This document shows, piece after piece, positions 35,092-60,534 of a DNA stretch of 64,000 bases. A program made the position numbers and the translations under genes. Numbering within the stretch: the stretch's first letter is position 1; each line of letters begins with the position of its first letter. The stretch is taken from positions 1 to 64,000 of IMG/VR virus record IMGVR_UViG_3300035696_000035. One strand, 5' to 3'. The notes below the pieces were generated by a model, which searched no databases, had not been told where the DNA came from, and saw nothing but the letters and a program-made list of their open reading frames with translations. Source of the DNA: a virus.

Positions 35092-35788
35092 CATCATTGC
35101 ATCGTTCCTGCTGCCGACCCGGGGTCGTCCCGATCGTCTAGTCCAGAGCATCCAATCGATTCACACTCGTAACGGCAGCATCAAGCGTTGGGATGACACC
35201 GACATCCCGAACTACGAGATCCTGATCCGGGCAGACGTTGATGACAAGCCGACGTGCGACCTGGTCAAGCCATGGGTCAACGACATCTATTGCCGGGTCA
35301 CCCTCGGACCCAGGCACCGCGGCTACCTCGACCTGCACCTGATGGTGAACCAGCTCGCGGTCCGTGCTCGAGGCGAGTTCCTGGTGTTGTGGAACGACGA
35401 TGCCCTGATGCAGACGGAAAACTGGGACGACGTGTTGAAGCGACACCTTGCTGACCCGCCACGCATCTACCATCCCACCTCAGCCGGGACCAACCGCAAC
35501 ATCTTCCCGATCGTCAGGCGTAGCATCTACGGAGCTATGGGCCGCTTCAGCGAGAGCGCTCTCAACGACTTCTACGTGTGGACGCTGGCCAAGCGGTTGG
35601 GCATCAACACCCACATTGACATCGACATCAAGCACGACCATCCTCAGGTCGGCGGCACCAACATCGACCAGACCTACCTCGATGCAGCCGCCGCATGTGG
35701 TATCGTCAAGCACGACGACAAGGATCCTCGGATCCTAGCGTGCCTGGCTGAGGACGAGGCCAAGATCCGAACGTTGCTCAATAGGTGA
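35085..35788 (+). CDS. family-2 glycosyltransferase
   Basis: TTG start after GAAAGGAGGG RBS; LLPTRGRPDRL (GT2 PTYNR-type) and ADVDDK DxD. Confidence 0.6.
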
Positions 35789-36569
35789 GCAGCGACCGCC
35801 AGTGATCGGGCACCGGCGTCTCAGGACCGACGGCATGGGGATCACCCTCGTTGACCCATGGGGCTTTGTGAGTCCTGAAGTACTCGCTTGCGGTCGCCTT
35901 GTTGAGGTCCAGGAACCTGCCGCTGTGTCGATTCACGTACTCGTCAATGTCAACGCGCCAGGCATGAAGCAACGCTAGATCGACATCGATGGGTTCATCA
36001 ACCTGCTTGACTCCGGCGTCGAAGAAGTTGTGGAAGCCCTTCTGGTACACTATCGGTTTCTTGGTGATCAACGTTTTGTCGTACGTTGGCAGCAACCACA
36101 TCGAATTGCGAGCTTCCAGGAGGCTCGCGCCGGGCTCGCGTCTGACAGCCGGCTCCGTATCGATCTGCTGGACAACGTTCCAACCCTGAGCCCGACGCCT
36201 TGTCGAGGTTGGATCATCATTGAACTGTTGACAGTAGTCGAGCAGACCTGCATACCTGGTGCTCGGGATCAGGTACTCGTCGGTCTCGCTGAAGACAACA
36301 ACGCGGTAACGTTGAAGCAGCTCACGTTGGAACGCTTCGACAGTCCCCTTCAAGAACAGGCTGACATGCGCCACAGGTGAGTCTCGAAAGACGAAGTTGA
36401 CGGTTGGGTGCAACGCTCTTGCCTCTTCAACGCTGCCGTCCGTCGTCGAGTTGTTGATGACATAGACGTCCTCTGGCGGGAAGACCTTCGTCATGTAGTT
36501 GAGCCACACCCGGAGAAACAGGGGCTCGTTGCGCGTGATGGTGAAGGCAGCGAAGTCGTGTTCTCCCAT
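35778..36569 (-). CDS. putative glycosyltransferase (paralog of 33200..33988)
   Basis: AFTITRNEPLFL, INNSTTDGSVEE, DLALLHAW conserved blocks. Confidence 0.55.
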   Translation of the reverse strand: MGEHDFAAFTITRNEPLFLRVWLNYMTKVFPPEDVYVINNSTTDGSVEEARALHPTVNFVFRDSPVAHVSLFLKGTVEAFQRELLQRYRVVVFSETDEYLIPSTRYAGLLDYCQQFNDDPTSTRRRAQGWNVVQQIDTEPAVRREPGASLLEARNSMWLLPTYDKTLITKKPIVYQKGFHNFFDAGVKQVDEPIDVDLALLHAWRVDIDEYVNRHSGRFLDLNKATASEYFRTHKAPWVNEGDPHAVGPETPVPDHWRSLLTY

Positions 36570-39594: not shown

Positions 39595-40031
39595 CCCTTG
39601 GCCGGATGGAGTTGGGCCAGTTCGCGGAGGACATCGACGGCCTGCTGCTCGAACTGGCCGACGATCTGTGCTGCCACGTACGCCTTTCGGTACAGCCACA
39701 GCGCCCTGATCAGCTGGGTCCCGATGACGATCGCGAGAGCGAACCAGCCGCTGGCACCGCAGAGCCAGGCAACCAGCGACAGCACCGACGCGCTGATGAC
39801 GCCGCCCGTTGCAGTGCCCCAGGCGTTGCGTCGCAACAGGTGGGAGTGGTAGACGTCACGGTAGAGTGCCAAGGCCAGGCCGAAGCTCGCCGCTTCCTCC
39901 TCTTTCACCTGGTGCCAGTCGACCTTGCTGGCCTCGTCAGTCATCAGGGTGTCAACGTCAACGTCGACATCCGCAGACTGGATCGTCACTTCACTGCTGT
40001 CCATTGTCTTGCTCCTTGCTGGGCTCGTCAT
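39591..40031 (-). CDS. membrane protein
   Basis: Two predicted TM helices (VISASVLSLVAWLCGASGWFALAIVIG). Confidence 0.4.
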   Translation of the reverse strand: MTSPARSKTMDSSEVTIQSADVDVDVDTLMTDEASKVDWHQVKEEEAASFGLALALYRDVYHSHLLRRNAWGTATGGVISASVLSLVAWLCGASGWFALAIVIGTQLIRALWLYRKAYVAAQIVGQFEQQAVDVLRELAQLHPAKG

Positions 40032-41631
40032 AGACGACCGCGTCGAGTGACAGGAACGTCGTTGCCACGCTGGCGGCGTGCTTGAGGGCTGACCGGGTCA
40101 CCTTGACCGGGTCGATGACTCCAGCCTGGACCAGGTCCTCGTACTCCCCCGTTGCCGCGTTGTACCCGCGGCTGTCGGAGCGCTCACCCCGTTCGAGCTC
40201 AGCAACGACGACGTCAGCGCTGGTGCCTGCGTTCTGGACGATGCGCTGGAGGGGCGACAAGCACGCCTTGAACACAGCCGTCGCTCCATGGACCTCGTCG
40301 GGGTCGACACCCTCGGCCTTGCCGACGGCGCTGCGGACCTTGGTCACTGCGTTGAACAACGCCATGCCACCGCCCGGGACCAGGCCCTCTTCGGTTGCTG
40401 CCTTCGTTGCGTTGAGAGCGTCCTCGATGCGGAACTTCCGCTCCTGCATCTCGATCTCGGTGGCACCACCGACGCGGATCACTGCGACGCCGTTGGCCAG
40501 CTTCGCTGCCCGCATCCGGAGCTTCGTCAGCTCGTCTTGAGCCAGGGTCACGTCAGTGGCCTGGACACGTAGCTGTTCCACGTGCTGGGCGACCTTCTCC
40601 TTGGTTGCGCCCCCAGCGACGATGGTCGTCACCTTGGCGTCCGACGTCAGCTTCCTGACCTGGCCCAGGTGGGTGCCCTGGATGTCCTTCAGGCTTAGTC
40701 CCGTCGCGCTGGAGATGAGCGTGGCCCCTGTCAGCACGCAGATGTCCTGCAGCAGCTCCTGACGGTGCTGGCCGTAGCCCGGTGCCTTGACGGCGACGAC
40801 GGGCAGCTTGCCCTGGGCCCGGTTGATGACGAGGCCCGTCATGGCGTCACCCTCGAAGTCTTCAGCGATGATCAGCAGCGGCCGCCGTGCCTGGGCCACC
40901 TTCTCGAGGGCAGGCACGATGTCAGCGAAGGAGGACAGCTTCTTGTCGGTGACCAGCACCAGAGCTTCCTCGTAGACAGCCCGCATCCGCTCCGGGTCGG
41001 TGATGAAGTACGGGCTGACGTAGCCCCTGTCGATCTGCATGCCCTCGACGACCTCCATCGAGGTCGACATGCCCTTGGCATCTTCGACGGTGATGATCCC
41101 GTCACGTCCCACCCGCTCCATGGCATCGGCGATCAGCTTGCCGATGACAGCATCACCGTTCGCTGAGATGGTGCCGACCTGGGCGACTTCCTCTGAGGTC
41201 TGGACAGCCTTGGCCGATCGCTTGAGCTCCTCGAGGACCAACTCCACAGTGGTGTTGATGCCCCTGCACACTGCCAGCGGGCTCATCCCCGCCTCGACCA
41301 GCTTCATGCCCTCGCGGACCAGCGCCTGGGTCAGGACGCTGGCGGTCGTGGTGCCGTCACCAGCGACGTCGTTGGTCTGGCTGGCTGCCTCACGGACCAG
41401 GTCTGCCCCCATCCTTTCGACTGGATCACGGAGCTTGATCGACTTGGACACCGTCACCCCGTCCTTGGTGACCAAGGGTGCCTGCCCCTGTCGCTGGATC
41501 AGCACCGTCTTGCCCTTCGGGCCGAGGGTGCATCCGATGGCGTCAGAAGCCTTGTCGAGGCCTGACAGGAGCTGCTTGCGAGCTTCGCTGCTGAAGATGA
41601 TCTGTGTCGTGGATTCGCCGGGCATGTTCAT
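39991..41631 (-). CDS. groEL: chaperonin GroEL (Cpn60)
   Basis: 546 aa; TLGPKGKTV, GDGTTTA, VEGMQIDRGY, AVKAPGYG, GGG(MALFNAV) hallmark motifs; full-length colinear with GroEL. Confidence 0.9.
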   Translation of the reverse strand: MNMPGESTTQIIFSSEARKQLLSGLDKASDAIGCTLGPKGKTVLIQRQGQAPLVTKDGVTVSKSIKLRDPVERMGADLVREAASQTNDVAGDGTTTASVLTQALVREGMKLVEAGMSPLAVCRGINTTVELVLEELKRSAKAVQTSEEVAQVGTISANGDAVIGKLIADAMERVGRDGIITVEDAKGMSTSMEVVEGMQIDRGYVSPYFITDPERMRAVYEEALVLVTDKKLSSFADIVPALEKVAQARRPLLIIAEDFEGDAMTGLVINRAQGKLPVVAVKAPGYGQHRQELLQDICVLTGATLISSATGLSLKDIQGTHLGQVRKLTSDAKVTTIVAGGATKEKVAQHVEQLRVQATDVTLAQDELTKLRMRAAKLANGVAVIRVGGATEIEMQERKFRIEDALNATKAATEEGLVPGGGMALFNAVTKVRSAVGKAEGVDPDEVHGATAVFKACLSPLQRIVQNAGTSADVVVAELERGERSDSRGYNAATGEYEDLVQAGVIDPVKVTRSALKHAASVATTFLSLDAVVYDEPSKEQDNGQQ

Positions 41632-44498: not shown

Positions 44499-44679
44499 TG
44501 GTCAGCCTCCTTGTGGGAACATGAGCGCTGACTGTCACAGTGGTGACCCCATCGGGCCCGGAGAGCTTTGCAGCCTCCATGAGGAGTCGCATCAAGTTCA
44601 TCATGGTTGAGCGCACGTCGCGGCCGCCGACCTTGACAGTCGTCGTCTTCACGCAATCGAACTTTTCTGGAGTGCTCAA
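44473..44679 (-). CDS. hypothetical protein
   Basis: 68-aa ORF, ATGA-coupled to NRDE gene. Confidence 0.35.
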   Translation of the reverse strand: MSTPEKFDCVKTTTVKVGGRDVRSTMMNLMRLLMEAAKLSGPDGVTTVTVSAHVPTRRLTSAIPDPTD

Positions 44680-45500
44680 CCGATGACCTCGATGTCTTCG
44701 TCCTTCAGCTCAATGGGCTCCAAGTCACTGAAGTCCAGATGCAGCAAGCGCCCCGCTAGTGTCAACGGCGTGTGTTGGCATGCAGGGCCCTCCTTGTACC
44801 AGTACTCCACAACCCCTTGATTGGACACGGTGACCAGGCTGGTGCTCCTTGTCCCGAAGGCAAACTCGTCAGCATGGACGCACAGGGCCTGGAACGGGTC
44901 GTCCTTCGCCTTCCTGTTTGAGAAGTGAGAGGCCAGCGTGACGAGCAGTCGTGTCTTGACTTCCTCGAACGGGACGGGAGGGTCATCGATGAGGCTCTCT
45001 GTCATCCGCTTGGCCCAGTCGGTCTTCTCGGCGTACCTGGTACCCCAACAGTCGTTGCTGATGACGTTGATGCCTTTGGGCATGGGCAACATCTCGATGT
45101 GGTTGCCTGGCAACACTCGGGTCAGGAACATCGCACCGGGCCTGCCAAAGACCAGGTTGAAGGGGTTGTAGTCTTCAGGGTCGATGGATGCCAGCACTCG
45201 AGCGGCAATGGTGTGGTTGCCCGCTCCGAGCACCCGGAGGACGACGTCGCCCCGAGACTTCTTGTGTTCGTCGTGGTGTTGGTCGTCCTGATTGGTGATG
45301 CCAACGAACCACCCCGTCTGGTCAACGCCCATCCAAGTGCCACCACGTTCGTCATCGTGGGGCATGATGAGGCTGATCAGGTTGGCCTTCTGTGTCACGT
45401 CAGGTGGGCGTGACTTGCGGTCGTACCTCTCGTCGCGGTTAGCGGCGACGATTAGTGGGTACCCCTCCACCTGCTCGTTGAGGATGATGAGCGTGCACAC
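44676..45500 (-). CDS. NRDE-family protein (TANGO2/DUF833-like, N-terminal Cys)
   Basis: MCTLIIL..PLIVAANRDERYDR matches NRDE-family N-terminus. Confidence 0.7.
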   Translation of the reverse strand: MCTLIILNEQVEGYPLIVAANRDERYDRKSRPPDVTQKANLISLIMPHDDERGGTWMGVDQTGWFVGITNQDDQHHDEHKKSRGDVVLRVLGAGNHTIAARVLASIDPEDYNPFNLVFGRPGAMFLTRVLPGNHIEMLPMPKGINVISNDCWGTRYAEKTDWAKRMTESLIDDPPVPFEEVKTRLLVTLASHFSNRKAKDDPFQALCVHADEFAFGTRSTSLVTVSNQGVVEYWYKEGPACQHTPLTLAGRLLHLDFSDLEPIELKDEDIEVIG

Positions 45501-45503
45501 CGC

Positions 45504-46088
45504 TCACCTGTCGTCGTCTTCTTCGTCCTCATCCTCGTCGTCGTCGCTCTCCTCGTACTCATCGTTGGGAGTGAAGACGGGAGCGTCAGCTCCCGGGTGG
45601 AGCTGGATCTCGCACCAGACCAGCTGCCCGTCGGAGATGATGAAGTGAGAGGTCTTGTAGTTGTTGATGTCTTCACCGTCGTCATTGACCTCCCCGTAGG
45701 TGACGCTTCCCTCGGCCTGGCCGCGGAGGAGCGGGACCACCTTGTTGACGAAGATCGGGAAGAAGGTGTTGGCCGCGGTCTCGTCGTAGCCGCTGTCATC
45801 GTCGTGCCAGTCGAGGCAGTTGATCTCCAGGCCGGCCACCGACTTCTTGACAACCTTGGCACCGCACTCTCGACAGAACTTGGCGTTACCGTAGCTGGTG
45901 GTGCCGCAGGCACACTTGACCTTCTCTTTGGTCTGCGAGTTGATCTTGTCCTCCAGCTCACGGAGGAAGCAGTTCTCGGGAAGGTCCCCGTCGTACTTGT
46001 CGAGGAGCTTCTTGGCATCGCGCGGGTCGATGTTGAGGGTTGAACGCTCAGGCCTCAGGAACGTGACGCTGTCGATTCGAGTGCTCAT
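45504..46088 (-). CDS. hypothetical zinc-ribbon protein with poly-acidic tail
   Basis: CACG..x..CRECG ribbon; C-terminal EESDDDEDEDEEDDD. Confidence 0.4.
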   Translation of the reverse strand: MSTRIDSVTFLRPERSTLNIDPRDAKKLLDKYDGDLPENCFLRELEDKINSQTKEKVKCACGTTSYGNAKFCRECGAKVVKKSVAGLEINCLDWHDDDSGYDETAANTFFPIFVNKVVPLLRGQAEGSVTYGEVNDDGEDINNYKTSHFIISDGQLVWCEIQLHPGADAPVFTPNDEYEESDDDEDEDEEDDDR

Positions 46089-46999
46089 ATCGGTGCCTCC
46101 ATCAATCTCTTGCCCAAGTCCTTCAAGAACTCGGGCCCGTACTTCAGGTTGCCTGTTGCCTCGAGGTCTCGCTCGAGGAAGTCAGGCAGGACTTCGTCCT
46201 GGCACCGTGCCGAGGCGATGCCCCAGGCGATCGCGGCGACGCTGTCAGTGTCCCCGCCCCACTCGATGACCTGTCGCATGATGCCCATCAGGGTCGGTTG
46301 GGTCGTCAACAAGGTATGCACCGCCCATGCAGTGTTCATGCCCACATCCCACGGTGAGTGCTTGGCTTTGCCGGTCACCGGGCCCACCCAGGGCTCACGG
46401 AAGCGCTCGAAGGCCGGGAGCTGGTTGGCCAACCACCCGGTCATGCTGGGGAAGTCTCGACGGTCATAGAGGGCAAAGTGTGACATCAGGGCCACAGCCA
46501 CCGAGGCAGTCACGCCCTCGTAGGTCGCATGGGTGGTGCCCGCCTGGCGCATCGCCATCATCTTGACCCACTCCGGGTCGGCGATGGTGCCGAGTGGCAC
46601 GCTCCGCATCGCCGCACCGTTCTTGGTCGAGTCGGGCTTCAGGGTCAGCCGCAGCTCGTCGCCGGACTTGACTGACTCGAGGATCGCCTGGAAGTTGCGG
46701 GAGTATCCATCACGGGGATCACGCTTGAAGGCGTTGAACCAAGCCTCGATGAAGTCCTCGTGCTTAGCGCTCCTACCCTTGGCCAACAGCACTTCGGTCA
46801 ACGCGATCGACATCTGGGTGTCGTCGGTGTACATGCCGGGCCGGAGCTTAGTGTGGGTCGGGTGCTGCAGGTACTGTTCGAATCGGCGAGCCCACTCGTA
46901 GAGGCCTGGGTTCTCTGCTTCCTTGACGTACTCGACGCACGCGGCGTAGGCGTCGCCCTGCGCGATACGGAGCAGCATCAAGTCGTTGCGGTGTCTCAC
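46085..46999 (-). CDS. ADP-ribosylglycohydrolase family protein (DraG/ARH-like)
   Basis: N-terminal GDAYAA, YTDDTQMS, C-terminal GGDTDSVAAIAWGIASA motifs. Confidence 0.7.
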   Translation of the reverse strand: MRHRNDLMLLRIAQGDAYAACVEYVKEAENPGLYEWARRFEQYLQHPTHTKLRPGMYTDDTQMSIALTEVLLAKGRSAKHEDFIEAWFNAFKRDPRDGYSRNFQAILESVKSGDELRLTLKPDSTKNGAAMRSVPLGTIADPEWVKMMAMRQAGTTHATYEGVTASVAVALMSHFALYDRRDFPSMTGWLANQLPAFERFREPWVGPVTGKAKHSPWDVGMNTAWAVHTLLTTQPTLMGIMRQVIEWGGDTDSVAAIAWGIASARCQDEVLPDFLERDLEATGNLKYGPEFLKDLGKRLMEAPI

Positions 47000-49706: not shown

Positions 49707-50603
49707 TCAGTGTTGGACGCTCGGGACCCAGTGCGTAGTGCGACCATCCTTGGTCTCTTCCTTGACGACTGGGTTGCCAATCGGGTCCGTCTGATTACCA
49801 TACACCGCGAAGCGGCGTTGCATGCCACCTTTTGAGCCGTCAACGTTGCGGTAGGTGCTGATGGTCGCACCACCCGTGTTGTAGCTCGCCTTCATCACGT
49901 TGACGATCTGCTGGCGGAGCCGCTCGATCTCCTGGTTCGACAGCTCGCAGACGATGCGATGTGGGCTGAGCTCGGCTAGGTACAGGGCCTCGGCCTTGAC
50001 GTAGTTGCCAACCCCGCTGACGCACGACTGGTCCATCAGTGCCTCGGCCAACGTTTTCTGGTTGCGGCGGTTGAGGGCGATCCGGAACTGTTGCTCGTTG
50101 GGCGGGTTATGTAGCATGTCTGGCCCGAGCGATGCCAGTTTTTCTTGGTGCAGCTCGTCGCTGTGGACGAACTTCAGGGTGCCGAAGTGCCGGTGGTCGT
50201 TGAAGTACAGGGCGGGTGGCTGGACGAAGTTGCCGGTCGCATCGAGGGGTGAGCCAGAGTCGTTGTAGTTGATTCCGAAGCCTGCGTGTTTGGTCTGCTC
50301 TGACGACCACTGGCCCGACATCCCGTATGTGATCCATAGGCGCCACGGTGGTTCGCTCCGTTCGGGTCCCACCAGCTTCCGTGGGAAGTCCATCGTCCAC
50401 CACATGAACTTGCCCTTGCAGTCGACCTCGGTCACCCGACAGGCACCCCGACCGCGAAGCTCGCCGAGGAACTCGGCGAAGCCCTCGGGTGGCCGCTGCA
50501 CGTACCGGCCCGTGGTGCCCACGAAGGCATTGACGATACGCTTGCCCACAAGCAAGCGGCACAGGTGGTCGGTGCTACGCCGGACCTCGGGACCCTCGGG
50601 CAT
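49707..50603 (-). CDS. Fpg/Nei-family DNA glycosylase (zincless-finger type)
   Basis: Diagnostic N-terminus MPEGPEV; H2TH region (SGVGNYVKAEALYLAEL); no C-terminal CxxC zinc-finger cysteines (NEIL1/Mimivirus-Nei-like). Confidence 0.8.
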   Translation of the reverse strand: MPEGPEVRRSTDHLCRLLVGKRIVNAFVGTTGRYVQRPPEGFAEFLGELRGRGACRVTEVDCKGKFMWWTMDFPRKLVGPERSEPPWRLWITYGMSGQWSSEQTKHAGFGINYNDSGSPLDATGNFVQPPALYFNDHRHFGTLKFVHSDELHQEKLASLGPDMLHNPPNEQQFRIALNRRNQKTLAEALMDQSCVSGVGNYVKAEALYLAELSPHRIVCELSNQEIERLRQQIVNVMKASYNTGGATISTYRNVDGSKGGMQRRFAVYGNQTDPIGNPVVKEETKDGRTTHWVPSVQH

Positions 50604-50683
50604 GACATCACCTTACCACAGGTGTGCGCCAGGGTACATGTACTTGTGCCCGAAACGTATAGCTATGTTCTAAGGGGTGTGTT
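50604..50683. promoter_or_regulatory. divergent intergenic region with two perfect palindromes
   Basis: GTACATGTAC (10 bp) and ATAGCTAT (8 bp) between Fpg/Nei (-) and protease (+) genes. Confidence 0.3.
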
Positions 50684-51544
50684 ATGAAGCGTCTGGCGGT
50701 CTGGGCCTTGGCAGTTACGTTGCCGGCCTGTTGTGTAGCAGCCAGGACGTCGACGGTGAACCCGTCAACACACCTGACTCTGGTCGAACAGCTTGAAGCA
50801 GAGTCACCTGCGTTGGTCTGGTTCAGCGATGGAGAAGGGCACCACACCTACGACACTGACAACGTTCCCAATGGCTACAACCTGGTGCCGTACTGTGCCT
50901 CAGTGTGGATCAGCCCCGATACGATCTTGACCGCTGAGCACTGCGTCGATGACATCGGTCGCCCGAACGAGAAGGCAGACACCAGCACCGATGACAACAC
51001 CGGTGACGACGATGATCCGACCCAGTTGCTGCTGCAACTCCTGGACCAACTACAGGCCCTGAAGGCACAGACGGTCGCTTGGACGCCGGTGGGTCAGGCT
51101 GTCCTGTACTCCAACCGTGAGGACATCGATCCCAAACACAAGGCGTACCACTCTGGCAGGGTCACCGCGGTCGACATGATCAATGACCTGGCTCTGATCA
51201 AGGCAGATGCTCCGGGCAACCACTTCGTTGCCCATCTTCGCCAGGGGACCATCCACGATGGTGAGGAGCTCCACGTTGTGGGAATGCCCGCCGGGTCTTG
51301 GTGGTCCTACAGTCACAACTACGTATCGGGTGAAAGGCCCGAGTACTGGGACGGCAAGCACACTCGCCCGATCATGCAGACATCGGGTCCCCTCTTCTTC
51401 GGCAACTCCGGCGGTGGAGCCTTCGACACTGATGGCAATCTGGTCGGCATCGCTGACGCCATCAGCAGGGTCCCATCAACGGGCTTCTTCATTCCTCGGG
51501 ACGTCATCCAGGGTTTCCTCACCGCCAACGGCTTCAAGCGTTGA
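50684..51544 (+). CDS. secreted trypsin-like (S1) serine protease
   Basis: Signal peptide MKRLAVWALAVTLPAC; His motif LTAEHCV, Asp (NDLALIK), Ser motif GNSGGGAFD. Confidence 0.7.
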   Translation: MKRLAVWALAVTLPACCVAARTSTVNPSTHLTLVEQLEAESPALVWFSDGEGHHTYDTDNVPNGYNLVPYCASVWISPDTILTAEHCVDDIGRPNEKADTSTDDNTGDDDDPTQLLLQLLDQLQALKAQTVAWTPVGQAVLYSNREDIDPKHKAYHSGRVTAVDMINDLALIKADAPGNHFVAHLRQGTIHDGEELHVVGMPAGSWWSYSHNYVSGERPEYWDGKHTRPIMQTSGPLFFGNSGGGAFDTDGNLVGIADAISRVPSTGFFIPRDVIQGFLTANGFKR

Positions 51545-51971
51545 CGGGCTGGTGCTGGACATACCAACGCCAGTAGTCGGTCAAGGCATGGTCCTTAGGG
51601 GCTTCGTCCCCGATGATGCCCTGGCAGAAGATCTCCCAAGACCGAGCACCGTACTCACCGATCCCGGGCAGGTCCCGGGCGTGTTGCCATGGTCCCGCCA
51701 GGTACAGGTGGGTCATCTTCATCATGTTGTCGGTGCGTCGGGTAGCGAAGCCCAGGCTACGACAGACGTCAGCGACAGCTAGCGGGTTGGCGTTGATGAA
51801 CGCCTGCGGCGTGGGCCACAGTCGCCTGAACTCAGGCAACACCCGCTCGACTTGCTTCCGGCTCGTCTGGTTCAGCATCATGCAGCTGATCAGGATCATC
51901 CACTCGTCCGGCCACAGGTCCTCCTGTAGCAACCCGAACGGGCTCCTGGGCGGCGTCCACCTTTGGTTCAT
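51534..51971 (-). CDS. HhH-GPD DNA glycosylase, MBD4/Mig-like
   Basis: LISCMMLNQTSRK, LPGIGEYGARSWEIFCQGII, HALTDYWRWYV align to MBD4 glycosylase domain (IATIFLNRTSGK, LHGIGKYGNDSYRIFCV, HKLNKYHDWLW); start uncertain because of overlap with 51832..52401. Confidence 0.55.
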   Translation of the reverse strand: MNQRWTPPRSPFGLLQEDLWPDEWMILISCMMLNQTSRKQVERVLPEFRRLWPTPQAFINANPLAVADVCRSLGFATRRTDNMMKMTHLYLAGPWQHARDLPGIGEYGARSWEIFCQGIIGDEAPKDHALTDYWRWYVQHQPVNA

Positions 51972-52401
51972 CGTTTGCCTCTCCCATCATGATCAACAGG
52001 CGGTGTTGCTCCTGGATGAGCTCACGTTGTTCGACGCGAGCGTCTTCCAGCGCTCGCAGTGCATCGTGTCTAGCCGACTCCATCACGTCACGGCTGTACT
52101 CAACCCGAGTGTTCATGGCGTTGTTTCGTAGGTTGCTGATCTGCTGGTCGAGCATCTTCCGTCTGTCCAACAGGACGTTCAGCGCCTGCTTCTTTGTGTC
52201 GAAGAGTTGCTGTTCAATCGTGATTGCGGGGCGCTCGGGTGGCGGGGACGCCAGCTCTGCCTGCTTCAGGTCGACCTCGGCCTTCTTGGTCGCGGCATGC
52301 TTCTTGGCGCCGTAGTGGTTACCGATCCACACCAAAGCGAGCAGCGTGCCACAGATCAGGTACAGCATCGTCATTGTCATCGGCCCACTCCGCACCAGCA
52401 C
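51832..52401 (-). CDS. membrane-anchored coiled-coil protein
   Basis: MTMTMLYLICGTLLALVWIG TM helix then coiled coil; 3' end overlaps glycosylase ORF. Confidence 0.35.
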   Translation of the reverse strand: MLVRSGPMTMTMLYLICGTLLALVWIGNHYGAKKHAATKKAEVDLKQAELASPPPERPAITIEQQLFDTKKQALNVLLDRRKMLDQQISNLRNNAMNTRVEYSRDVMESARHDALRALEDARVEQRELIQEQHRLLIMMGEANDEPKVDAAQEPVRVATGGPVAGRVDDPDQLHDAEPDEPEASRAGVA

Positions 52402-52622
52402 TGGTCTTCACCGCACCCCGGGCACGTTTCGTGCTTGAGGTCTTCAGCCTTGCATTCCTCGGGAGCGCTCCATTCTTCCTGGACGCCCCACACGTGGACA
52501 TGCCGCCCGTTCTTGTCCCAGATGACGATGAGGGTGCCATCAACGACAGCGTCGACGAGCCCGTAGGATCCCGGGCGGTCCTTGTGAGCGACTAGGTCTG
52601 CCATCCCGAAAGTTTCAGACAT
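52377..52622 (-). CDS. hypothetical protein (family-A-like core, C-terminal Cys cluster)
   Basis: Trimmed to MSETFGMADLVAHK; TLIVIWD..; CPGCGEDQCWCG. Confidence 0.3.
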   Translation of the reverse strand: MSETFGMADLVAHKDRPGSYGLVDAVVDGTLIVIWDKNGRHVHVWGVQEEWSAPEECKAEDLKHETCPGCGEDQCWCGVGR

Positions 52623-53700
52623 ACTTGAATCCGGTGAGCATCCGGCCCGCCGCCTCCAGGTCTTCTTGTGTCTTGACCCCGAAGTACCGCGCGTCTCGTG
52701 GCACTCTGACGAACTGGGTCGGGAACTCCTCAGTGAGCTGCTGCAGCAGCCGCTCATGCTGGATGACAAGGCGGTGACCCACCTGCTTGCGGGCTCGGTG
52801 CCAGCGCCACTCGATGGGTGCCTTCAGCGCTGCGATGTCGATGATCATTGAGTTGGTGTTGTGCCACCGAGCCTGGTCGGCGAAACCTGCGGGCAGCCGC
52901 CAGTCTTCAGCGATCTGGAGCTTGTTGTTGACGTATGCAACGACGCCGCCTTTGTCGCCGCGTTGGCGTTCAATCACCTCGCAAGTGACGGTAGCACCCT
53001 CTCGCTTGTGAAAGCCCAGCAACCCAGGGTGTGGTGAACCCATCACGTTGTCGACGTTGACGATGTAGGCGTACTTCACACCTGGGTTGTCAGCGATGAC
53101 CCCGCTCTCAACCAGCGCCGGGCCCACGTCACCGTGCCCCAGCGGGTACAGGTCGGGTACCCCGTGAGCGATCCACTCCAACCGGTTGTCCGGTGTCAAG
53201 CGGTACCCCTCGAACTGCTCGAAGATGTGGTAGCTCGCCTTGGGCGGTCGCGCCAGCTTCTCTAGGTGGAGAGCGATCGACTTCAGATTGCCGACTGACG
53301 TCATGATCCAGACGGGCATGTTGCCACCCTGCATCACCTTCCACGCCAGCATGCTGGTGTCGACTCCGGGGATCTTGGCGAAGACCTTGGGCATCCCCAT
53401 CCGGGTACCCGCACCACCTGCCAGCAGGACGAAGGCGACCTCGCCCCTGCTGATCATCTCTTCGCCGACCTGTTCGTCAGCAACGGTGATCTCTTCGTAG
53501 TTGTTGAGCTTGTCGTCGTCCGGAAAGTCCGGGTGGTACATCGCCGGATCGGCATCCTGACGAGTCGTCATCTTGACGAGCTCCTCGTCGGTGAGTGCAC
53601 CTGAACGGTGAACCCGAACCTGAAACTCGGGCAGGACCTGGGTCAGCTCTTCACGTAGTGAGCGAACGAATCCGGGTTCAGTCTTCACCAGCCACCTCTT
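52615..53700 (-). CDS. UTP--glucose-1-phosphate uridylyltransferase family (UGPase/UDP-sugar pyrophosphorylase type)
   Basis: LLAGGAGTRMG nucleotide-binding loop, PLGHGDV motif; true start uncertain (Arg/Ser-rich 5' extension of track ORF discarded). Confidence 0.65.
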   Translation of the reverse strand, partial: KRWLVKTEPGFVRSLREELTQVLPEFQVRVHRSGALTDEELVKMTTRQDADPAMYHPDFPDDDKLNNYEEITVADEQVGEEMISRGEVAFVLLAGGAGTRMGMPKVFAKIPGVDTSMLAWKVMQGGNMPVWIMTSVGNLKSIALHLEKLARPPKASYHIFEQFEGYRLTPDNRLEWIAHGVPDLYPLGHGDVGPALVESGVIADNPGVKYAYIVNVDNVMGSPHPGLLGFHKREGATVTCEVIERQRGDKGGVVAYVNNKLQIAEDWRLPAGFADQARWHNTNSMIIDIAALKAPIEWRWHRARKQVGHRLVIQHERLLQQLTEEFPTQFVRVPRDARYFGVKTQEDLEAAGRMLTGFKYV

Positions 53701-54187
53701 GTTCAAACCAACTCTCGTCGACGGGTATGTCAGGGAACGGCCACCAAGCGGGTGCGGCCGCCCTGGGTGCCCACTTGGCGAAACGTGCTTTCTCACCGAT
53801 GTAGTACGCGCGGTACGCCTTGACGGGGTCAGCATCGCGGTACTGCTCGGGCATCGCCTGAGCAAAGGGAGTCAGCCCCAGGTCAGGCAGGTCAGGTTGT
53901 TCGAGCGAGGCGATGATGTGTTCGGTCTTGTGGACCTTGCCGTAACGACGAGTGTACTCGTTGCAGAGCTCACAAGCGTGCCGCAACAACCACTCATAGT
54001 TCGACAACGAGGCACGGACCCACTTGCCACACGGGTGGTTGACGTGAGTGTGTTTGTATCGCGTCGTCCCGGGCGGGAATGCAGTGACCAACAGTTGGGC
54101 ACTCTCCAACAGCATCTTGACCACGTGCTTGTTGCACTGGTCTCGTGCTGCCTTGAGCGGGTCCTGGTCTAGGACGAAGATGTTCAT
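53678..54187 (-). CDS. hypothetical protein
   Basis: 169-aa ORF; MNIFVLDQDPLKAARDQCNKHVVKM N-terminus. Confidence 0.45.
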   Translation of the reverse strand: MNIFVLDQDPLKAARDQCNKHVVKMLLESAQLLVTAFPPGTTRYKHTHVNHPCGKWVRASLSNYEWLLRHACELCNEYTRRYGKVHKTEHIIASLEQPDLPDLGLTPFAQAMPEQYRDADPVKAYRAYYIGEKARFAKWAPRAAAPAWWPFPDIPVDESWFEQEVAGED

Positions 54188-54390: not shown

Positions 54391-54590
54391 TTGTTACACA
54401 CGATTCGACACCGCTTGATCAGCTCCAGCGGAATGAAGCTGTTTTCTCGCCGCAGCTCTTCCTGCGTGACCTCTCCTGCCGCTAGCCGGCGGGCATCTTC
54501 ATCGCGCGAGGCCTGCTTCTCTGCGGCACGCTTCTTCGGGTCGAACGTCTCCATGGCACTAAGGTTACACCATGCGACGTCGTTTTTCAC
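54387..54590 (-). CDS. hypothetical small protein
   Basis: 67-aa ORF, ATGA-coupled. Confidence 0.35.
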   Translation of the reverse strand: MKNDVAWCNLSAMETFDPKKRAAEKQASRDEDARRLAAGEVTQEELRRENSFIPLELIKRCRIVCNK

Positions 54591-55150
54591 TCAGCGGCTG
54601 GCAACCCCAGTTTCGACCACAACTGCTTGTTGTACGAGCCAAAGGGACCATTGAACAGCACGCTGGGTTTCACCCACCGAATGACGCCGCTCTCAGGCGT
54701 GTTGATCTCGCCCTCGACCTCACAAGCGAATGTGTGAGTGACGAAGCCATCGTCCTCCTGGTGCGTGAAGACGTGCGATAGCTTGGTGGCAGTCAAACCC
54801 GTCTCCTCCTGGAGCTCACGGGCTGCTGCTTGTTCAGCGGTCTCGCCCGGGTCAACCTTGCCGCCAGGCAGACCAAACGCCGACGGATCGTTCTTGCGAG
54901 ACACCGCCAATACGTGACCATCGTTCGTCAGGATGAGGCAACACGCTGCTTGTTTCACGTCCTGCTCCGCTGTTTCTTCCTCGTTCTCTTCGTCATCGAG
55001 GATGTTGCTGCTGGCACCGGGCCTGACGCCCGCATCGCCCGTTGTCAGGCCAGTCGGGTGCAAGTTGCCGGCGACACCGTCCTTGCCGTACTGCTTGTTG
55101 TTGAATCCTACCAGGACCTCCTGGATGTATTCACGGAGCAGCTTGCTCAT
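54587..55150 (-). CDS. NUDIX hydrolase
   Basis: Nudix box GGKVDPGETAEQAAARELQEETGL; start trimmed to MSKLLREY. Confidence 0.7.
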   Translation of the reverse strand: MSKLLREYIQEVLVGFNNKQYGKDGVAGNLHPTGLTTGDAGVRPGASSNILDDEENEEETAEQDVKQAACCLILTNDGHVLAVSRKNDPSAFGLPGGKVDPGETAEQAAARELQEETGLTATKLSHVFTHQEDDGFVTHTFACEVEGEINTPESGVIRWVKPSVLFNGPFGSYNKQLWSKLGLPAAE

Positions 55151-57751: not shown

Positions 57752-58600
57752 TCACGATTCTTGTGGGCCCCAGAGCGGATCGAACGTTGCGACGAACTTG
57801 TCCCACGTCCCTTCCTTCAGCATGCTCTTGAAAGCCATGCTCTCGAACTGCTCACGGAGGGGCTGCCAGTCGCGCTTCGAGCCCGATGAACGCATCTTCA
57901 ACGCTTCCTCGTCGGTCCACTCGTACAGCGCGATCAGGGAAGTGTTGCGAACGAACTGGTCTTGCAGGGACTGGTCGCTCTCAAGCAGTTGCTGCAGCTT
58001 CACCAGGTCTGTCGCCAGCTCCGTCGCCCTGACGTCCCCGATGCCGGGGAGGCTCGGGATGTTGTCGCTGCCGTCGCCACGAAGCGACTTCCAGGTGACG
58101 TAGTCGTACTCCGGTGCCTCGACGTACTTCTTGGTGATCGGGTTGTAGAGCTTGACGTTGCCGAACTCCTGCAGCATCTGGATGAAGTCGGTGTCCGTCG
58201 ACACCACGGTGAAGTCGATGGCCGAGCTTGACCGCTTCACCAGGTTGTAGATCAGGTCGTCGGCCTCGAAGTCCGGGTGTTGGACGACGGTGACGGGCAG
58301 CATGTGAGTCAGGATGCGGACGATGATCTCGTTCTGTCGTCTGTAGTCCTCTTCGCTGCGCTTGCCCTCGACGGCTTCCCCCTCCCGACCGATGCGGTTG
58401 GCCTTGTACTCGGGCAGCAGCTGTAGCTGGCGTCGGGGCGCACCCTCCAGGGTGAAGTAGACCCGGGTCGGCTTCATCAGCTCGACCAACGACCTCAGGT
58501 TGCGGACGAAGTTGTAGACGACGTTGAAGTCTCCCAACTGGAAGCCAGCCCGAGCACGGTACATGAAGTTGTGCCCGTCGATGATCAGGATCTTGCTCAT
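57752..58600 (-). CDS. 5'-3' exonuclease / flap endonuclease (T5 D15 / Pol I N-terminal domain-like)
   Basis: ILIIDGHNFMYRA PIN motif; GDGSDNIPSLPGIG H3TH motif. Confidence 0.8.
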   Translation of the reverse strand: MSKILIIDGHNFMYRARAGFQLGDFNVVYNFVRNLRSLVELMKPTRVYFTLEGAPRRQLQLLPEYKANRIGREGEAVEGKRSEEDYRRQNEIIVRILTHMLPVTVVQHPDFEADDLIYNLVKRSSSAIDFTVVSTDTDFIQMLQEFGNVKLYNPITKKYVEAPEYDYVTWKSLRGDGSDNIPSLPGIGDVRATELATDLVKLQQLLESDQSLQDQFVRNTSLIALYEWTDEEALKMRSSGSKRDWQPLREQFESMAFKSMLKEGTWDKFVATFDPLWGPQES

Positions 58601-60117: not shown

Positions 60118-60534
60118 TCACTGGTTGATGACGATGCACCCGGCGACGACCAGCGTGACACCGAGCAACTTCGTGAGAGTGAAGGACTCGCCCAGGAACA
60201 TGCAACACAGCAGAAAGGCCAACACCGGGTTGGTGCTGGTCATTGTGTTGACGAAGCTGGCGGGCTTGTTCTCAACAGCGAACATGTAGGAGTACACAGC
60301 GCCCAGCCCCAACATCGCAGTGACGACAGCCCAAGCGATGCCTGGCTTCGTCCAGTTGATGTCCTCACCCCGCCACTTCATCACCAGCGTGGCAATGGGC
60401 GCGACGGCGCTGTAGACGTACAGCATCACCAGCTGTACCAACATCGGCGACATGCTGCGGACAGCGAGCTTGGAGGTCAGCACCCACCAGCCCCAGAAGA
60501 ACGTCGCCGCGGCGATGAACACCCAATCCCTCAC
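60118..60534 (-). CDS. DMT-superfamily (EamA/SMR-like) small membrane transporter
   Basis: 138 aa, four hydrophobic helices, EamA-like pattern (VYSYMFAVEN..ESFTLTKLLGVTLVVAG). Confidence 0.5.
   Translation of the reverse strand: MRDWVFIAAATFFWGWWVLTSKLAVRSMSPMLVQLVMLYVYSAVAPIATLVMKWRGEDINWTKPGIAWAVVTAMLGLGAVYSYMFAVENKPASFVNTMTSTNPVLAFLLCCMFLGESFTLTKLLGVTLVVAGCIVINQ

What the first reader, a model, noticed from the sequence alone, without database searches (positions are those of the whole stretch)
49707..51971. Unusual base-excision-repair pair: zincless-finger Fpg/Nei plus MBD4-like mismatch glycosylase
Fpg/Nei has the N-terminal PE catalytic dyad and H2TH but no CxxC...CxxC zinc finger, resembling NEIL1/Mimivirus Nei. 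The 145-aa HhH protein aligns to the MBD4/Mig T:G/U:G glycosylase domain.

Both are rare in phages. They may protect or edit a modified genome (for example deaminated or hypermodified bases). A T5-like FEN (57752-58600) and NUDIX (54587-55150) lie nearby.
Basis: partly seen in the sequence, partly recalled or inferred. Interest (0 to 1): 0.55.

Follow-up and report, generated by a model that had tools for sequence, protein, structure and literature searches.

The report
Phage MBD4-like and zincless Nei repair pair
A large uncultivated phage carries a stand-alone copy of the glycosylase domain of the animal and plant MBD4 enzyme (which removes T or U mispaired with G) together with a mimivirus/NEIL1-type Nei glycosylase-lyase that has lost its zinc finger; the two genes form a conserved module in many big phages, often alongside enzymes that make modified cytosine.

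Summary
ORF 49707-50603(-) is an intact Fpg/Nei enzyme. It has Pro2/Glu3, the Lys, the H2TH motif and the finger Arg, but none of the four zinc ligands. Its best solved match is Mimivirus Nei1. ORF 51534-51971(-) is a stand-alone MBD4-type glycosylase domain (E 9e-26; model TM 0.90, rmsd 1.2 A). The catalytic Asp and the Gln/Tyr pyrimidine pocket are conserved, and there is no lyase Lys.

The pair is not accidental. Fpg lies downstream on the same strand in 31 of 82 related phage loci. In nine distinct distant loci the MBD4-like stop codon and the Nei start codon overlap in a conserved NTGCCTGA junction, which suggests translational coupling. In this clade a protease gene has been inserted between them.

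The MBD4-like family is almost absent from cellular prokaryote genomes. Its nearest non-phage relatives are eukaryotic MBD4 proteins. Its only cultured-phage relatives include Xp12, whose DNA is fully 5mC. About half of the large related contigs carry a dCMP-specific (Asn177->Asp) thymidylate-synthase homologue. No such gene was found for this phage's own clade.

Best reading: a coupled glycosylase plus AP-lyase repair module for deaminated or oxidised bases. A link to modified cytosine is plausible but unproven here.

The parts
51534..51971 (-). Stand-alone MBD4-type HhH-GPD DNA glycosylase (MBD4L), 145 aa. Predicted to be a monofunctional glycosylase that removes T, U or 5-substituted U opposite G.
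   Evidence: PDB phmmer E 9e-26 to the MBD4 domain. AF2 pLDDT 95.1. Foldseek TM 0.90, rmsd 1.2 A. D127 corresponds to human D560, Q16 to Q449 and Y107 to Y540, all conserved (residue roles from PMC3479182). Y107 occupies the position of the EndoIII lyase Lys. There is no Fe-S Cys cluster.
49707..50603 (-). Fpg/Nei-family bifunctional DNA glycosylase/AP lyase with a zincless finger (MvNei1/NEIL1-like), 298 aa.
   Evidence: Pfam H2TH, Fapy N-domain and PF21025. MvNei1 E 5e-36. Foldseek top hit MvNei1. P2, E3, K63/K65, M95, R138, F140, N200 and R288 are conserved in the family alignment; the four Zn ligands are replaced by T/N/V/V.
50684..51544 (+). Trypsin/HtrA-like serine protease with a lipoprotein-like signal (MKRLAVWALAVTLPAC). 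It lies on the opposite strand between the two glycosylase genes. It is probably a clade-specific insertion and not part of the repair function.
   Evidence: Pfam Trypsin_2 1.9e-16. Present on the opposite strand in the same place in 22 related loci, and absent from the loci where MBD4L and Nei overlap.
53678..54187 (-). Pyr_excise-family (T4 endonuclease V-like) ORF, 169 aa. It is the third DNA glycosylase in this 4.5-kb stretch.
   Evidence: Precomputed Pfam on the identical ENA contig. Pfam PF03013 1.8e-7, 31.8 bits against a cutoff of 23. Homologues sit at the same position in L007, L008, L009, L013, L018 and L019. No PDB sequence hit.
52615..53688 (-). UDPGP-family sugar-1-phosphate uridylyltransferase. 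It is a conserved immediate upstream neighbour of MBD4L.
   Evidence: Pfam UDPGP 4.6e-23. Found about 1 kb upstream of MBD4L in about 21 loci and in the MAG contig L164.
51832..52401 (-). Conserved ORF of unknown function (182-189 aa) whose 3' end overlaps the first ~140 nt of the MBD4L gene in another frame.
   Evidence: tblastn gives 49% identity in L002/L003 and about 42% in L004-L006, with the same overlap. No Pfam hit.
54587..55150 (-). NUDIX hydrolase (MutT/NudG-like). Conserved about 1-4 kb upstream of MBD4L.
   Evidence: Pfam NUDIX 1.1e-22. Best PDB hits are CTP pyrophosphohydrolase NudG and MutT-type proteins, about 5e-9. Present in 23-26 related loci.
57752..58600 (-). 5'-3' exonuclease / flap endonuclease (T5 D15 / Pol I N-terminal type).
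   Evidence: Pfam 5_3_exonuc_N 7e-22. It is the most frequent neighbour family, found in 38-47 related loci.

Best explanation
This is a phage-encoded base-excision-repair module built around two enzymes that work in series.

Step 1. The MBD4-like protein is predicted to be a monofunctional, mismatch-specific pyrimidine glycosylase. It would flip out T, U or a 5-substituted U paired with G, which are the deamination products of 5mC, C and 5hmC. It would cut the glycosidic bond with Asp127 and leave an abasic site.

Step 2. The zincless-finger Nei uses its N-terminal Pro2 amine to cleave that abasic site, presumably by beta,delta-elimination as in its characterised relatives. It probably also releases the slow, product-bound glycosylase. 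Independently, it removes oxidised bases.

Step 3. The resulting gap would be finished by a 3'-phosphatase, a polymerase, the nearby FEN and a ligase.

The two genes are an ancestral, translationally coupled operon in this group of large phages. In the clade of this window an unrelated protease gene was later inserted between them. A T4-endoV-like glycosylase and a NUDIX hydrolase complete a local repair and pool-sanitation cluster.

Status of each point:
- Shown: family membership, intact catalytic residues, the zincless finger, and conserved linkage with overlapping stop and start codons.
- Inferred: substrate (from pocket conservation) and enzyme hand-off (from gene coupling and analogy).
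- Likely in relatives but unproven here: the module exists because these phages replace C by 5mC or 5hmC, whose deamination products host uracil-DNA glycosylase cannot remove.
For: Identity and integrity:
- Sequence and family matches. Models and fold matches.
- MBD4 pocket residues Q449, Y540 and D560 and the L466-N467-x-T469 loop are conserved. Their roles are taken from PMC3479182.
- Tyr sits at the lyase-Lys position, which predicts a monofunctional enzyme that needs an AP-site processor.
- Nei catalytic P2, E3, K63, R138, F140, N200 and R288 are conserved.

Linkage:
- Fpg lies downstream on the same strand in 31 of 82 loci.
- In 9 distinct loci at 37-46% MBD4L identity, the MBD4L stop and the Nei start share the 8-nt junction NTGCCTGA (sequence read).
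- The MBD4L-protease-Fpg order holds for the closest relatives that carry both genes; a 369-kb relative (L002) is syntenic with the window.

Context:
- Neighbours are FEN, NUDIX, RNR, DnaB, Pol III alpha, a dUTPase_2-like protein and a TS-like protein.

Link to modified cytosine:
- The only cultured-phage homologues at full length include Xp12. Xp12 DNA is 5mC by LC-MS (PMC7653180).
- In Xp12 the gene abuts HAD hydrolase, a TS homologue, dCMP deaminase and DHFR.
- Every TS homologue near MBD4L has Asp at E. coli ThyA Asn177, which is the dCMP-specificity signature (established knowledge), and keeps D169.
- 14 of 27 MBD4L contigs of 100 kb or more carry such a gene.

Precedent for coupling: NEIL1 stimulates TDG-mediated excision (PMC5566547). 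The commercial USER mix combines UDG with Endo VIII.

Neither glycosylase has a PADLOC defence-system match.
Against: - No biochemical data exist for any member of the family.
- The helix-invading Arg468 of MBD4 is Gln here and Gln/Cys across the family. Pocket Gly471 is an invariant Arg, and K562 is Ala. Lesion or opposite-base specificity may therefore differ from MBD4.
- In this window the two genes are no longer an operon. They have separate starts and an opposite-strand gene between them.
- Fpg was not found within 10 kb in 51 of 82 loci, and no Xanthomonas phage appeared among the Fpg tblastn hits. MBD4L can therefore work without it.
- No dCMP-type TS or any other base-modification gene was found in the 64-kb window. 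None was found for the closest large relatives in three list-limited searches.
- CpG is not depleted (rho 0.97), so there is no compositional signature either way.
Confidence: 0.6

Rival explanations
1. These are two independent housekeeping repair genes that merely sit in the same replication/repair gene block. MBD4L handles deamination and Nei handles oxidation, with no enzyme hand-off and no relation to DNA modification. The phage carries its own BER because a very large genome or a long or compartmentalised replication cycle limits access to host repair.
For: In this window the genes are separated by an opposite-strand gene and have separate starts. The region also holds Pyr_excise, NUDIX and FEN, so it looks like a general repair cluster. 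Most loci have MBD4L without Fpg within 10 kb. No modification genes are in the window.
Against: A conserved 8-nt stop/start overlap occurs in nine divergent loci, with the Pro codon fixed as CCT to create the TGA stop. That is hard to explain without selection for co-expression. Linkage survives the protease insertion. A monofunctional glycosylase needs an AP-processing partner. The family is enriched in contigs with dCMP-type TS.
Confidence: 0.2
2. The module is a weapon or quality-control nuclease rather than a repair system. Glycosylase plus lyase together would cut DNA at a base the phage itself does not contain. Targets could be host DNA, or phage DNA that misincorporated a canonical base. 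This would be analogous to T4 nucleases that target cytosine-containing DNA.
For: The family is associated with phages predicted to replace cytosine. Glycosylase plus beta,delta-lyase is effectively a base-specific endonuclease, as in the USER mix. The plug residue and one pocket residue differ from MBD4.
Against: The pocket residues that read the 2,4-dioxo pyrimidine edge (Gln, Tyr) are conserved. So is the loop whose backbone reads the orphan G. This predicts mismatch-restricted T/U excision, not attack on normal base pairs. The phages predicted to modify C still contain T. No dedicated host-shutoff context is seen.
Confidence: 0.07
3. The cluster is a phage 'GO system'. NUDIX would act as MutT, Nei/Fpg as MutM, and the HhH protein as a MutY-like adenine glycosylase, all directed against 8-oxoguanine.
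For: The order NUDIX ... HhH-GPD ... Fpg recurs. The NUDIX protein hits MutT-type structures. TIGR fpg scores higher than nei.
Against: The HhH protein matches MBD4 at 1e-25 but MutY only at E about 1, and TM is 0.90 against about 0.6. By my own reading of the motifs against the E. coli MutY sequence (recalled, not aligned with a tool), the position of the MutY catalytic Glu in SE(I/V)MLQQT appears to be Cys here (SCMMLNQT). The best NUDIX hit is a CTP pyrophosphohydrolase and is weak. The closest solved Nei is MvNei1, which is described (my knowledge) as a NEIL1-like enzyme that prefers oxidised pyrimidines and Fapy lesions.
Confidence: 0.05
4. The module is a counter-defence. It would repair damage inflicted on phage DNA by host DNA deaminases or defence glycosylases.
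For: Defence glycosylases and modification-targeting systems exist (PMC11078745, listed). T:G/U:G repair would reverse deaminase damage.
Against: There is no specific evidence for this. An AP lyase would convert defence-made abasic sites into strand breaks. The genes sit in a replication module, not among anti-defence genes, and the glycosylases have no PADLOC relation.
Confidence: 0.05

Closest known systems
Glycosylase domain of mammalian MBD4 (PDB 4e9e, 4dk9, 1ngn, 6vjw) and plant MBD4-like proteins
   Same: 36-38% identity over the whole domain, TM 0.90, rmsd 1.2 A. No Fe-S cluster. Catalytic Asp, Gln/Tyr base pocket, the LN-x-T DNA-invading loop and the HhH hairpin are conserved. Tyr replaces the lyase Lys. 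After the phage family itself, the next-best hits among 1.84 billion cluster representatives are long proteins with the domain at the C-terminus. The three that carried organism names come from Chara, Riccia and Phlomoides.
   Different: It is a stand-alone 145-aa protein with no methyl-CpG-binding domain and no long N-terminal region. Arg468 is Gln, Gly471 is an invariant Arg, Lys562 is Ala and Leu508 is Phe. It is encoded by a phage and was ancestrally translationally coupled to a Nei gene.
Mimivirus Nei1 (MvNei1, PDB 3a42/3a46/3vk8) and human NEIL1
   Same: MvNei1 is the best sequence and structure match (E 5e-36; Foldseek 9e-27). Both share the zincless-finger motif DPxGN...RTT(H/Y)WxPxxQ with the conserved Arg, as well as Pro2/Glu3 and H2TH.
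   Different: About 31% identity to MvNei1, and only a weak sequence match to NEIL1 (E about 1e-4, H2TH region only). The phage family contains zinc-finger (CHCC), one-Cys and zero-Cys members side by side. It has an extra insert at residues ~70-85.
Uncharacterised ORF QNN97216 of Xanthomonas phage Xp12 (all-5mC genome), with homologues in Janthinobacterium phage Donnerlittchen and Stenotrophomonas phage AXL_1
   Same: Same MBD4-type family, with the invariant N, T, G, R, G, Y and D columns. It lies in a nucleotide-metabolism block next to a dCMP-type (Asn177->Asp) TS homologue.
   Different: Only about 30% identical. It comes from a 64-kb siphovirus. No Xanthomonas phage appeared among the Fpg/Nei tblastn hits. 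It is annotated 'hypothetical protein', 'endonuclease III' or 'ENDO3c domain-containing protein', and I found no functional study.
TDG-NEIL1/NEIL2 cooperation in vertebrate active DNA demethylation, and the in-vitro USER mix (UDG + Endonuclease VIII)
   Same: A monofunctional pyrimidine glycosylase is paired with a Nei-family AP lyase that processes the abasic product and stimulates excision (PMC5566547; USER described).
   Different: The glycosylase there is TDG or UDG (UDG superfamily), not an HhH enzyme. In the phages the coupling is genetic (overlapping genes) and is biochemically untested.
Archaeal/bacterial Mig (Mig.MthI, PDB 1kea) T:G glycosylases and E. coli Vsr very-short-patch repair
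   Same: Functional analogues that correct T:G arising from 5mC deamination.
   Different: Mig carries a 4Fe-4S cluster and matches only at E about 0.9, TM 0.62. Vsr is an endonuclease of an unrelated fold.

Membership tests
MBD4-type subfamily of HhH-GPD glycosylases | HhH-GPD fold of the compact MBD4 type, without an Fe-S cluster domain | tested here: met
   Foldseek gives 16 MBD4 entries at TM 0.89-0.91, rmsd 1.2 A; EndoIII, MutY and Mig reach TM about 0.6. There are only 3 scattered Cys and no C-x6-C-x2-C-x5-C motif (sequence).
MBD4-type subfamily of HhH-GPD glycosylases | Catalytic Asp about 20 residues after the HhH hairpin (human D560) | tested here: met
   D127 in APKDHAL aligns with HPEDHKL. 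It is invariant in the 28-sequence alignment and at least 90% conserved in the 40-sequence alignment.
MBD4-type subfamily of HhH-GPD glycosylases | Pyrimidine pocket: Gln449 (essential) and Tyr540 read O2/N3 of T, U or 5hmU | tested here: met
   Q16 and Y107 align with them and are (nearly) invariant. Their roles come from PMC3479182.
MBD4-type subfamily of HhH-GPD glycosylases | Arg468 finger that fills the gap left by the flipped base | tested here: not met
   The position is Gln35 here, Gln or Cys across the phage family, and Leu in Xp12. An invariant Arg38 three residues later (human Gly471) may substitute; that is an inference.
MBD4-type subfamily of HhH-GPD glycosylases | Monofunctional: no Lys nucleophile in the HhH hairpin | tested here: met
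   GIGEYG has Tyr at the position of EndoIII Lys120, as MBD4 does in GIGKYG (the EndoIII position is from established knowledge).
Full-length MBD4 orthologue | N-terminal methyl-CpG-binding domain | tested here: not met
   The protein is 145 aa and consists of the glycosylase domain only. It is not an MBD4 orthologue, only a member of its glycosylase-domain family.
MBD4-type subfamily of HhH-GPD glycosylases | Excision of T, U or 5hmU opposite G | not testable with these tools
   Needs an enzyme assay.
Fpg/Nei (H2TH) glycosylase/AP lyases | N-terminal Pro nucleophile directly after Met, plus catalytic Glu | tested here: met
   MPEGPEV. P2 and E3 are at least 90% conserved across the family.
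Fpg/Nei (H2TH) glycosylase/AP lyases | H2TH DNA-binding motif, conserved Lys and gap-filling Met/Arg/Phe | tested here: met
   Pfam H2TH 1.6e-17. K63/K65, M95, R138, F140 and N200 are (nearly) invariant in the alignment.
Fpg/Nei (H2TH) glycosylase/AP lyases | C-terminal zinc finger (four Cys/His ligands) | tested here: not met
   The ligand positions are T, N, V and V, and there is no Cys in the last 45 aa.
Zincless-finger Nei subgroup (NEIL1, MvNei1, plant/fungal FPG) | Beta-hairpin that replaces the zinc finger and keeps the DNA-binding Arg | tested here: met
   PF21025 at 9.6e-7, 29.0 bits against a cutoff of 27. Predicted strands 280-283 and 289-292 at pLDDT above 90. R288 is invariant. 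Top structural hit is MvNei1.
Fpg (MutM) sensu stricto | 8-oxoG-capping loop and equivalog-level similarity | tested here: inconclusive
   TIGR00577 scores 148.7 bits, below its 203.3 cutoff; Nei scores 76.9, below 252. The loop region 245-270 is modelled at lower confidence.
Known anti-phage defence systems (PADLOC) | Match to a defence-system protein model | tested here: not met
   No PADLOC hit for either glycosylase or for Pyr_excise.

The most novel reading that the evidence does not exclude
The MBD4-like/Nei operon is a dedicated fidelity system for phage genomes in which cytosine is wholly replaced by 5mC, 5hmC or a derivative. It would remove the T or 5hmU that arises by deamination, which host uracil-DNA glycosylase cannot see. 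The Nei partner, made in step with the glycosylase, would turn over the product-bound enzyme. This would be a viral counterpart, and possibly an evolutionary relative, of the eukaryotic MBD4 and TDG/NEIL pathways. The MBD4-type domain is essentially confined to eukaryotes and these phages. In a rough NJ tree the eukaryotic sequences form one clade placed among phage lineages. That suggests gene transfer between phages and early eukaryotes, in an unresolved direction.
Probability: 0.3. Interest if true: 0.75.

Novelty: new variant of a known kind. Interest (0 to 1): 0.58.

Why it matters
1. It would be the first described viral mismatch-specific (T:G-type) base-excision system. It would also be a natural example of a glycosylase genetically coupled to its AP-lyase partner. 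That gives a simple two-protein model for the hand-off problem studied in TDG/MBD4-NEIL biology.

2. The family could serve as a genomic marker for phages with 5-substituted cytosine DNA. It could also be a source of compact (about 140 aa) T:G / 5hmU:G glycosylases for sequencing chemistry.

3. The family shows zinc-finger, single-Cys and zincless Nei proteins side by side. This documents how a zincless finger like that of NEIL1 and MvNei1 can arise.

4. The phage-plus-eukaryote distribution of the MBD4 domain bears on the origin of eukaryotic methylation-linked repair.

Tried and rejected
- Frameshift or hidden zinc finger: rejected. The ORF ends at the family-consensus C-terminus.
- EndoIII/AlkA/MutY/Mig assignment of the HhH protein: rejected.
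- Near-identical annotated phage: none by megablast. GroEL tblastn found no close annotated relative.
- dCMP-type TS in the window: none by tblastn or by motif scans for TS and for C5- and N6-methyltransferases.
- The same gene on the closest large relatives (369-kb, 340-kb and 216-kb contigs): not found in two IMG/VR scans and one protein search.
- Pfam on about 90 window ORFs: no base-modification enzyme. Only sugar-nucleotide enzymes turned up (UDPGP, UDP-Galp mutase, a weak GT2).
- Dinucleotide and palindrome statistics: CpG rho 0.97, 4-mer palindromes 0.6-1.1. Uninformative about modification.
- Promoter/terminator scan: not above shuffled expectation. No tRNAs.
- Literature: no paper in the library describes phage MBD4-like genes or their pairing with Nei. 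The jumbo-phage survey PMC7824862 mentions only T4 endoV-type glycosylases.
- PADLOC: no hit for the glycosylases.
- Lookup of a mid-window protein to obtain precomputed annotations: not on record.
- PDB sequence search for the Pyr_excise ORF: no hit.


Full report
**1. What is at the coordinates**

The window has the layout of a large phage genome. It is 61% GC, and a simple codon-position filter selected 105 mostly short, tightly packed ORFs. Identified genes include a GroEL, a lysozyme, a FEN and a NUDIX hydrolase. No near-identical annotated phage exists.

ORF 49707-50603(-), 298 aa:
- It matches Pfam H2TH (1.6e-17), the Fpg N-terminal domain (3e-11) and PF21025 Fapy_DNA_glyco_C (9.6e-7, above cutoff).
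- It scores below the equivalog cutoffs of both Fpg and Nei in NCBIfam.
- Its best solved relative is Mimivirus Nei1, aligned end to end at E 5e-36.

ORF 51534-51971(-), 145 aa:
- It matches 15 distinct MBD4 glycosylase-domain sequences in the PDB at E about 1e-25.
- Every other glycosylase is at E about 1.

**2. Are the proteins intact, and is the finger really zincless?**

The Nei protein was modelled with a 40-sequence alignment. The model has pLDDT 92.4 and a confident C-terminal beta-hairpin at 280-283 and 289-292. Foldseek ranks the five MvNei1 chains first (TM 0.80-0.83), ahead of MutM.

In the family alignment P2, E3, K63/K65, M95, R138, F140, N200 and the finger Arg R288 are invariant or nearly so. 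The four positions that form a C-x3-H...C-x2-C site in more distant members (for example P0202, P0211, P0232, P0240) are T, N, V and V in the window protein.

Among the 120 nearest relatives:
- 75 have no Cys in the last 45 residues;
- 25 have one;
- 4 have two;
- 16 keep the full CHCC finger.

The zinc site was therefore lost within this family. The ORF ends at the family-consensus ...GRTTHWVPSVQ, which excludes a frameshift. MvNei1 shares the DPxGN...RTTxWxPxxQ motif.

The MBD4-like protein (MBD4L below) gives a model with pLDDT 95.1. It superposes on 16 MBD4 structures at TM 0.89-0.91 and rmsd 1.2 A. EndoIII, Mig and MutY reach TM about 0.6.

I mapped the human residues using the structure paper PMC3479182 and the alignments:

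| Human MBD4 | Role | Window protein |
|---|---|---|
| D560 | catalytic Asp | D127 |
| Q449 | essential, base pocket | Q16 |
| Y540 | base pocket | Y107 |
| L466-N467-x-T469 | DNA-invading loop | L33-N34-x-T36 |
| L506-G507 | backbone reads the orphan G | L73-G74 |
| R468 | plug residue | Gln (Gln/Cys in the family) |
| G471 | pocket | invariant Arg |
| K562 | pocket | Ala |
| L508 | | Phe |

The first five rows are conserved and the last four differ. Tyr107 occupies the place of the EndoIII lyase lysine. The enzyme is therefore predicted to be monofunctional and to leave an abasic site.

**3. The pair is a conserved module**

The MBD4L family has at least 263 clusters at 90% identity, many on contigs of 200-370 kb. 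The Nei family has 1454. A 369-kb metagenomic contig with 86%-identical MBD4L is syntenic with the window. Its order is FEN, lysozyme, NUDIX, UDPGP, MBD4L, protease on the other strand, Fpg, ADP-ribosylglycohydrolase, TANGO2, AAA.

Across the 82 loci analysed (80 IMG/VR contigs, the 369-kb ENA relative and Xp12), a Fpg homologue lies downstream on the same strand in 31. Neighbour clustering shows a replication and nucleotide-metabolism context. It includes FEN, NUDIX, UDPGP, ClpP, RNR, DnaB, a dUTPase_2-like protein, Pol III alpha and a TS-like protein.

The strongest result concerns nine distinct loci whose MBD4L is only 37-46% identical to the window protein. In these loci the MBD4L stop codon and the Nei start codon overlap in the same 8-nt junction, NTGCCTGA. 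The junction consists of a start codon (ATG, GTG, TTG or CTG), then CCT for Pro2, then GA of Glu3, with TGA serving as the MBD4L stop (read directly). This is the classic arrangement for translational coupling, and it fixes the Pro codon as CCT.

In the clade that contains the window, a lipoprotein-like trypsin-family protease gene on the opposite strand sits between the two genes (22 loci). The pair was split, but it stayed together.

That makes three glycosylases within 4.5 kb.

**4. Distribution**

A scan of one genome for each of 185,579 bacterial and archaeal species found a single relative. It lies on an 89-kb contig of a 'Bdellovibrionota' MAG that has the same FEN...NUDIX-UDPGP-MBD4L order, so it is most likely a binned phage contig.

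A full HMMER pass over 1.84 billion cluster representatives gave 756 hits at E <= 1e-10. After roughly fifteen to twenty short, phage-type proteins, most of the remaining listed hits are long proteins with the domain at the C-terminus. The three that carried organism names are from Chara braunii (named MBD4 in UniRef), Riccia and Phlomoides. Ten that I scanned have HhH-GPD as their only repair-related domain, or no Pfam hit at all.

A rough neighbour-joining tree places the eukaryotic sequences as essentially one clade among phage lineages. It has no support values and is suggestive only.

**5. Link to modified cytosine**

Among 50,697 cultured-phage records, the full-length MBD4L relatives are the Xp12 group of Xanthomonas phages plus two relatives that infect Janthinobacterium and Stenotrophomonas. 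Xp12 DNA contains 5mC in place of C, as confirmed by LC-MS in PMC7653180.

In Xp12 the MBD4L gene directly precedes a HAD hydrolase, a thymidylate-synthase homologue, dCMP deaminase and DHFR.

All TS homologues found near MBD4L, including the one in Xp12, have Asp at the position of E. coli ThyA Asn177. From established knowledge, that change switches specificity from dUMP to dCMP, as in T4 dCMP hydroxymethylase. They keep D169, so they are not the 5-hydroxy-dCMP synthases of PMC13326640.

Of 27 MBD4L contigs of 100 kb or more, 14 carry such a gene. Deamination of 5mC gives T:G, and deamination of 5hmC gives 5hmU:G. Both are MBD4 substrates (structures listed; PMC3479182). From established knowledge, uracil-DNA glycosylase acts on neither.

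The limitation is that I could not show this for the window's own clade. No TS-like gene or other modification enzyme is in the 64 kb. The closest large relatives did not appear in three searches, each of which was limited by row or list caps. Composition gives no signal.

**6. Mechanism and alternatives**

The best-supported reading is a two-step BER module:
1. MBD4L makes an abasic site at a G-mispaired T, U or 5-substituted U.
2. The Nei lyase cleaves that site. By analogy with NEIL1 and TDG (PMC5566547) and with the USER enzyme mix, it may also relieve product inhibition.
3. A phosphatase, a polymerase, FEN and a ligase complete the repair.

Rival readings, in order of weight:
- independent housekeeping repair genes;
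- a base-specific nuclease directed at unmodified DNA;
- a MutT/MutM/MutY-like GO system;
- counter-defence.

The conserved overlap argues against the first. The conserved mismatch-reading pocket argues against the second. The MBD4-versus-MutY discrimination argues against the third, together with what appears (by my reading of the motifs, not a tool alignment) to be Cys at the position of the MutY catalytic Glu. Nothing specific supports the fourth, and neither glycosylase has a PADLOC match.

**7. Novelty**

Both proteins belong to known families, and automated pipelines already label some members 'MBD4' or 'Fpg'. I found no paper in the searchable library that describes phage MBD4-type glycosylases, their coupling to Nei, or their association with dCMP-modifying enzymes. 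PHROGs has no family for MBD4L and lists the Nei family as 'unknown function'. I therefore rate this as a new variant of a known kind, of moderate-to-good interest.

Noticed in passing
window 13020-16196 (+), with 16275-18197 (+) and 18622-19902 (+): A 1058-aa ORF carries Major Vault Protein domains: MVP_shoulder 6.7e-29, Vault_3 7.8e-10 and a Vault repeat 1.6e-5. It is followed by a 640-aa SPFH/Band-7 protein and an AAA ATPase. An MVP homologue in a phage genome is unusual and deserves its own look.
   Followed up: no
It is conserved at the same place in six related loci. No PDB sequence hit.
   Followed up: partly
window 51832-52401 (-) versus 51534-51971 (-): A conserved ORF of unknown function overlaps the first ~140 nt of the MBD4-like gene out of frame. 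The same overlap and 42-49% protein identity are seen in L002-L006. One gene caller truncated the MBD4-like gene to 115 aa because of this overlap.
   Followed up: partly
window 50684-51544 (+): A trypsin/HtrA-like protease has a lipoprotein-type signal (…TLPAC). It is convergent with the MBD4-like gene, with an 11-nt 3' overlap, and divergent from the Nei gene across an 80-nt spacer. It has a weak PADLOC match to the protease part of RT-Protease_XI (1.6e-6).
   Followed up: partly
window 52615-53688 (-), 33868-35091 (+), 35778-36569 (-): Three sugar-nucleotide genes are present. They are a UDPGP-family uridylyltransferase adjacent to the MBD4-like gene in about 21 loci, a UDP-galactopyranose mutase (8e-73), and a weak GT2-like ORF. 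They could serve DNA glycosylation or cell-surface modification; this is undecided.
   Followed up: partly
L164 (JBBAUR010000009.1, 'Bdellovibrionota' MAG, 89 kb): This is the only hit in 185,579 species genomes. It has the phage order FEN...NUDIX-UDPGP-MBD4L, so it is probably a phage contig binned into a MAG.
   Followed up: partly
protein family of window 49707-50603 (P0121-P0240): Full CHCC zinc fingers, single-Cys intermediates (…HWCPAIQ) and Cys-free fingers coexist within one phage Nei family. This looks like a snapshot of zinc-site loss.
   Followed up: partly
L040, L053-L064, L083-L201 (TS-like genes): The dCMP-type TS homologues are 325-345 aa long. They have a conserved C-terminal extension of about 80 aa that is absent from ThyA. 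Whether they act as methylases or hydroxymethylases is unknown. A glutamine-synthetase-like ORF and a dUTPase_2-like ORF recur nearby.
   Followed up: no
window 39991-41631 (-), 46085-46999 (-), 44676-45500 (-), 60118-60534 (-), 20520-21263 (+), 28124-28927 (+): Other cargo genes: GroEL (PHROG 6e-151), ADP-ribosylglycohydrolase, a TANGO2-family protein, an EamA half-transporter, an M24 peptidase and a calcineurin-like phosphoesterase. An Endonuclease VII ORF is somewhere among the small ORFs.
   Followed up: no
window 54587-55150 (-): The best solved relative of the NUDIX protein is E. coli CTP pyrophosphohydrolase NudG (5e-9). It also matches PADLOC candidate PDC-S07 (3e-15). A dCTP-clearing role would fit a cytosine-replacing phage, but this is pure speculation.
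   Followed up: no
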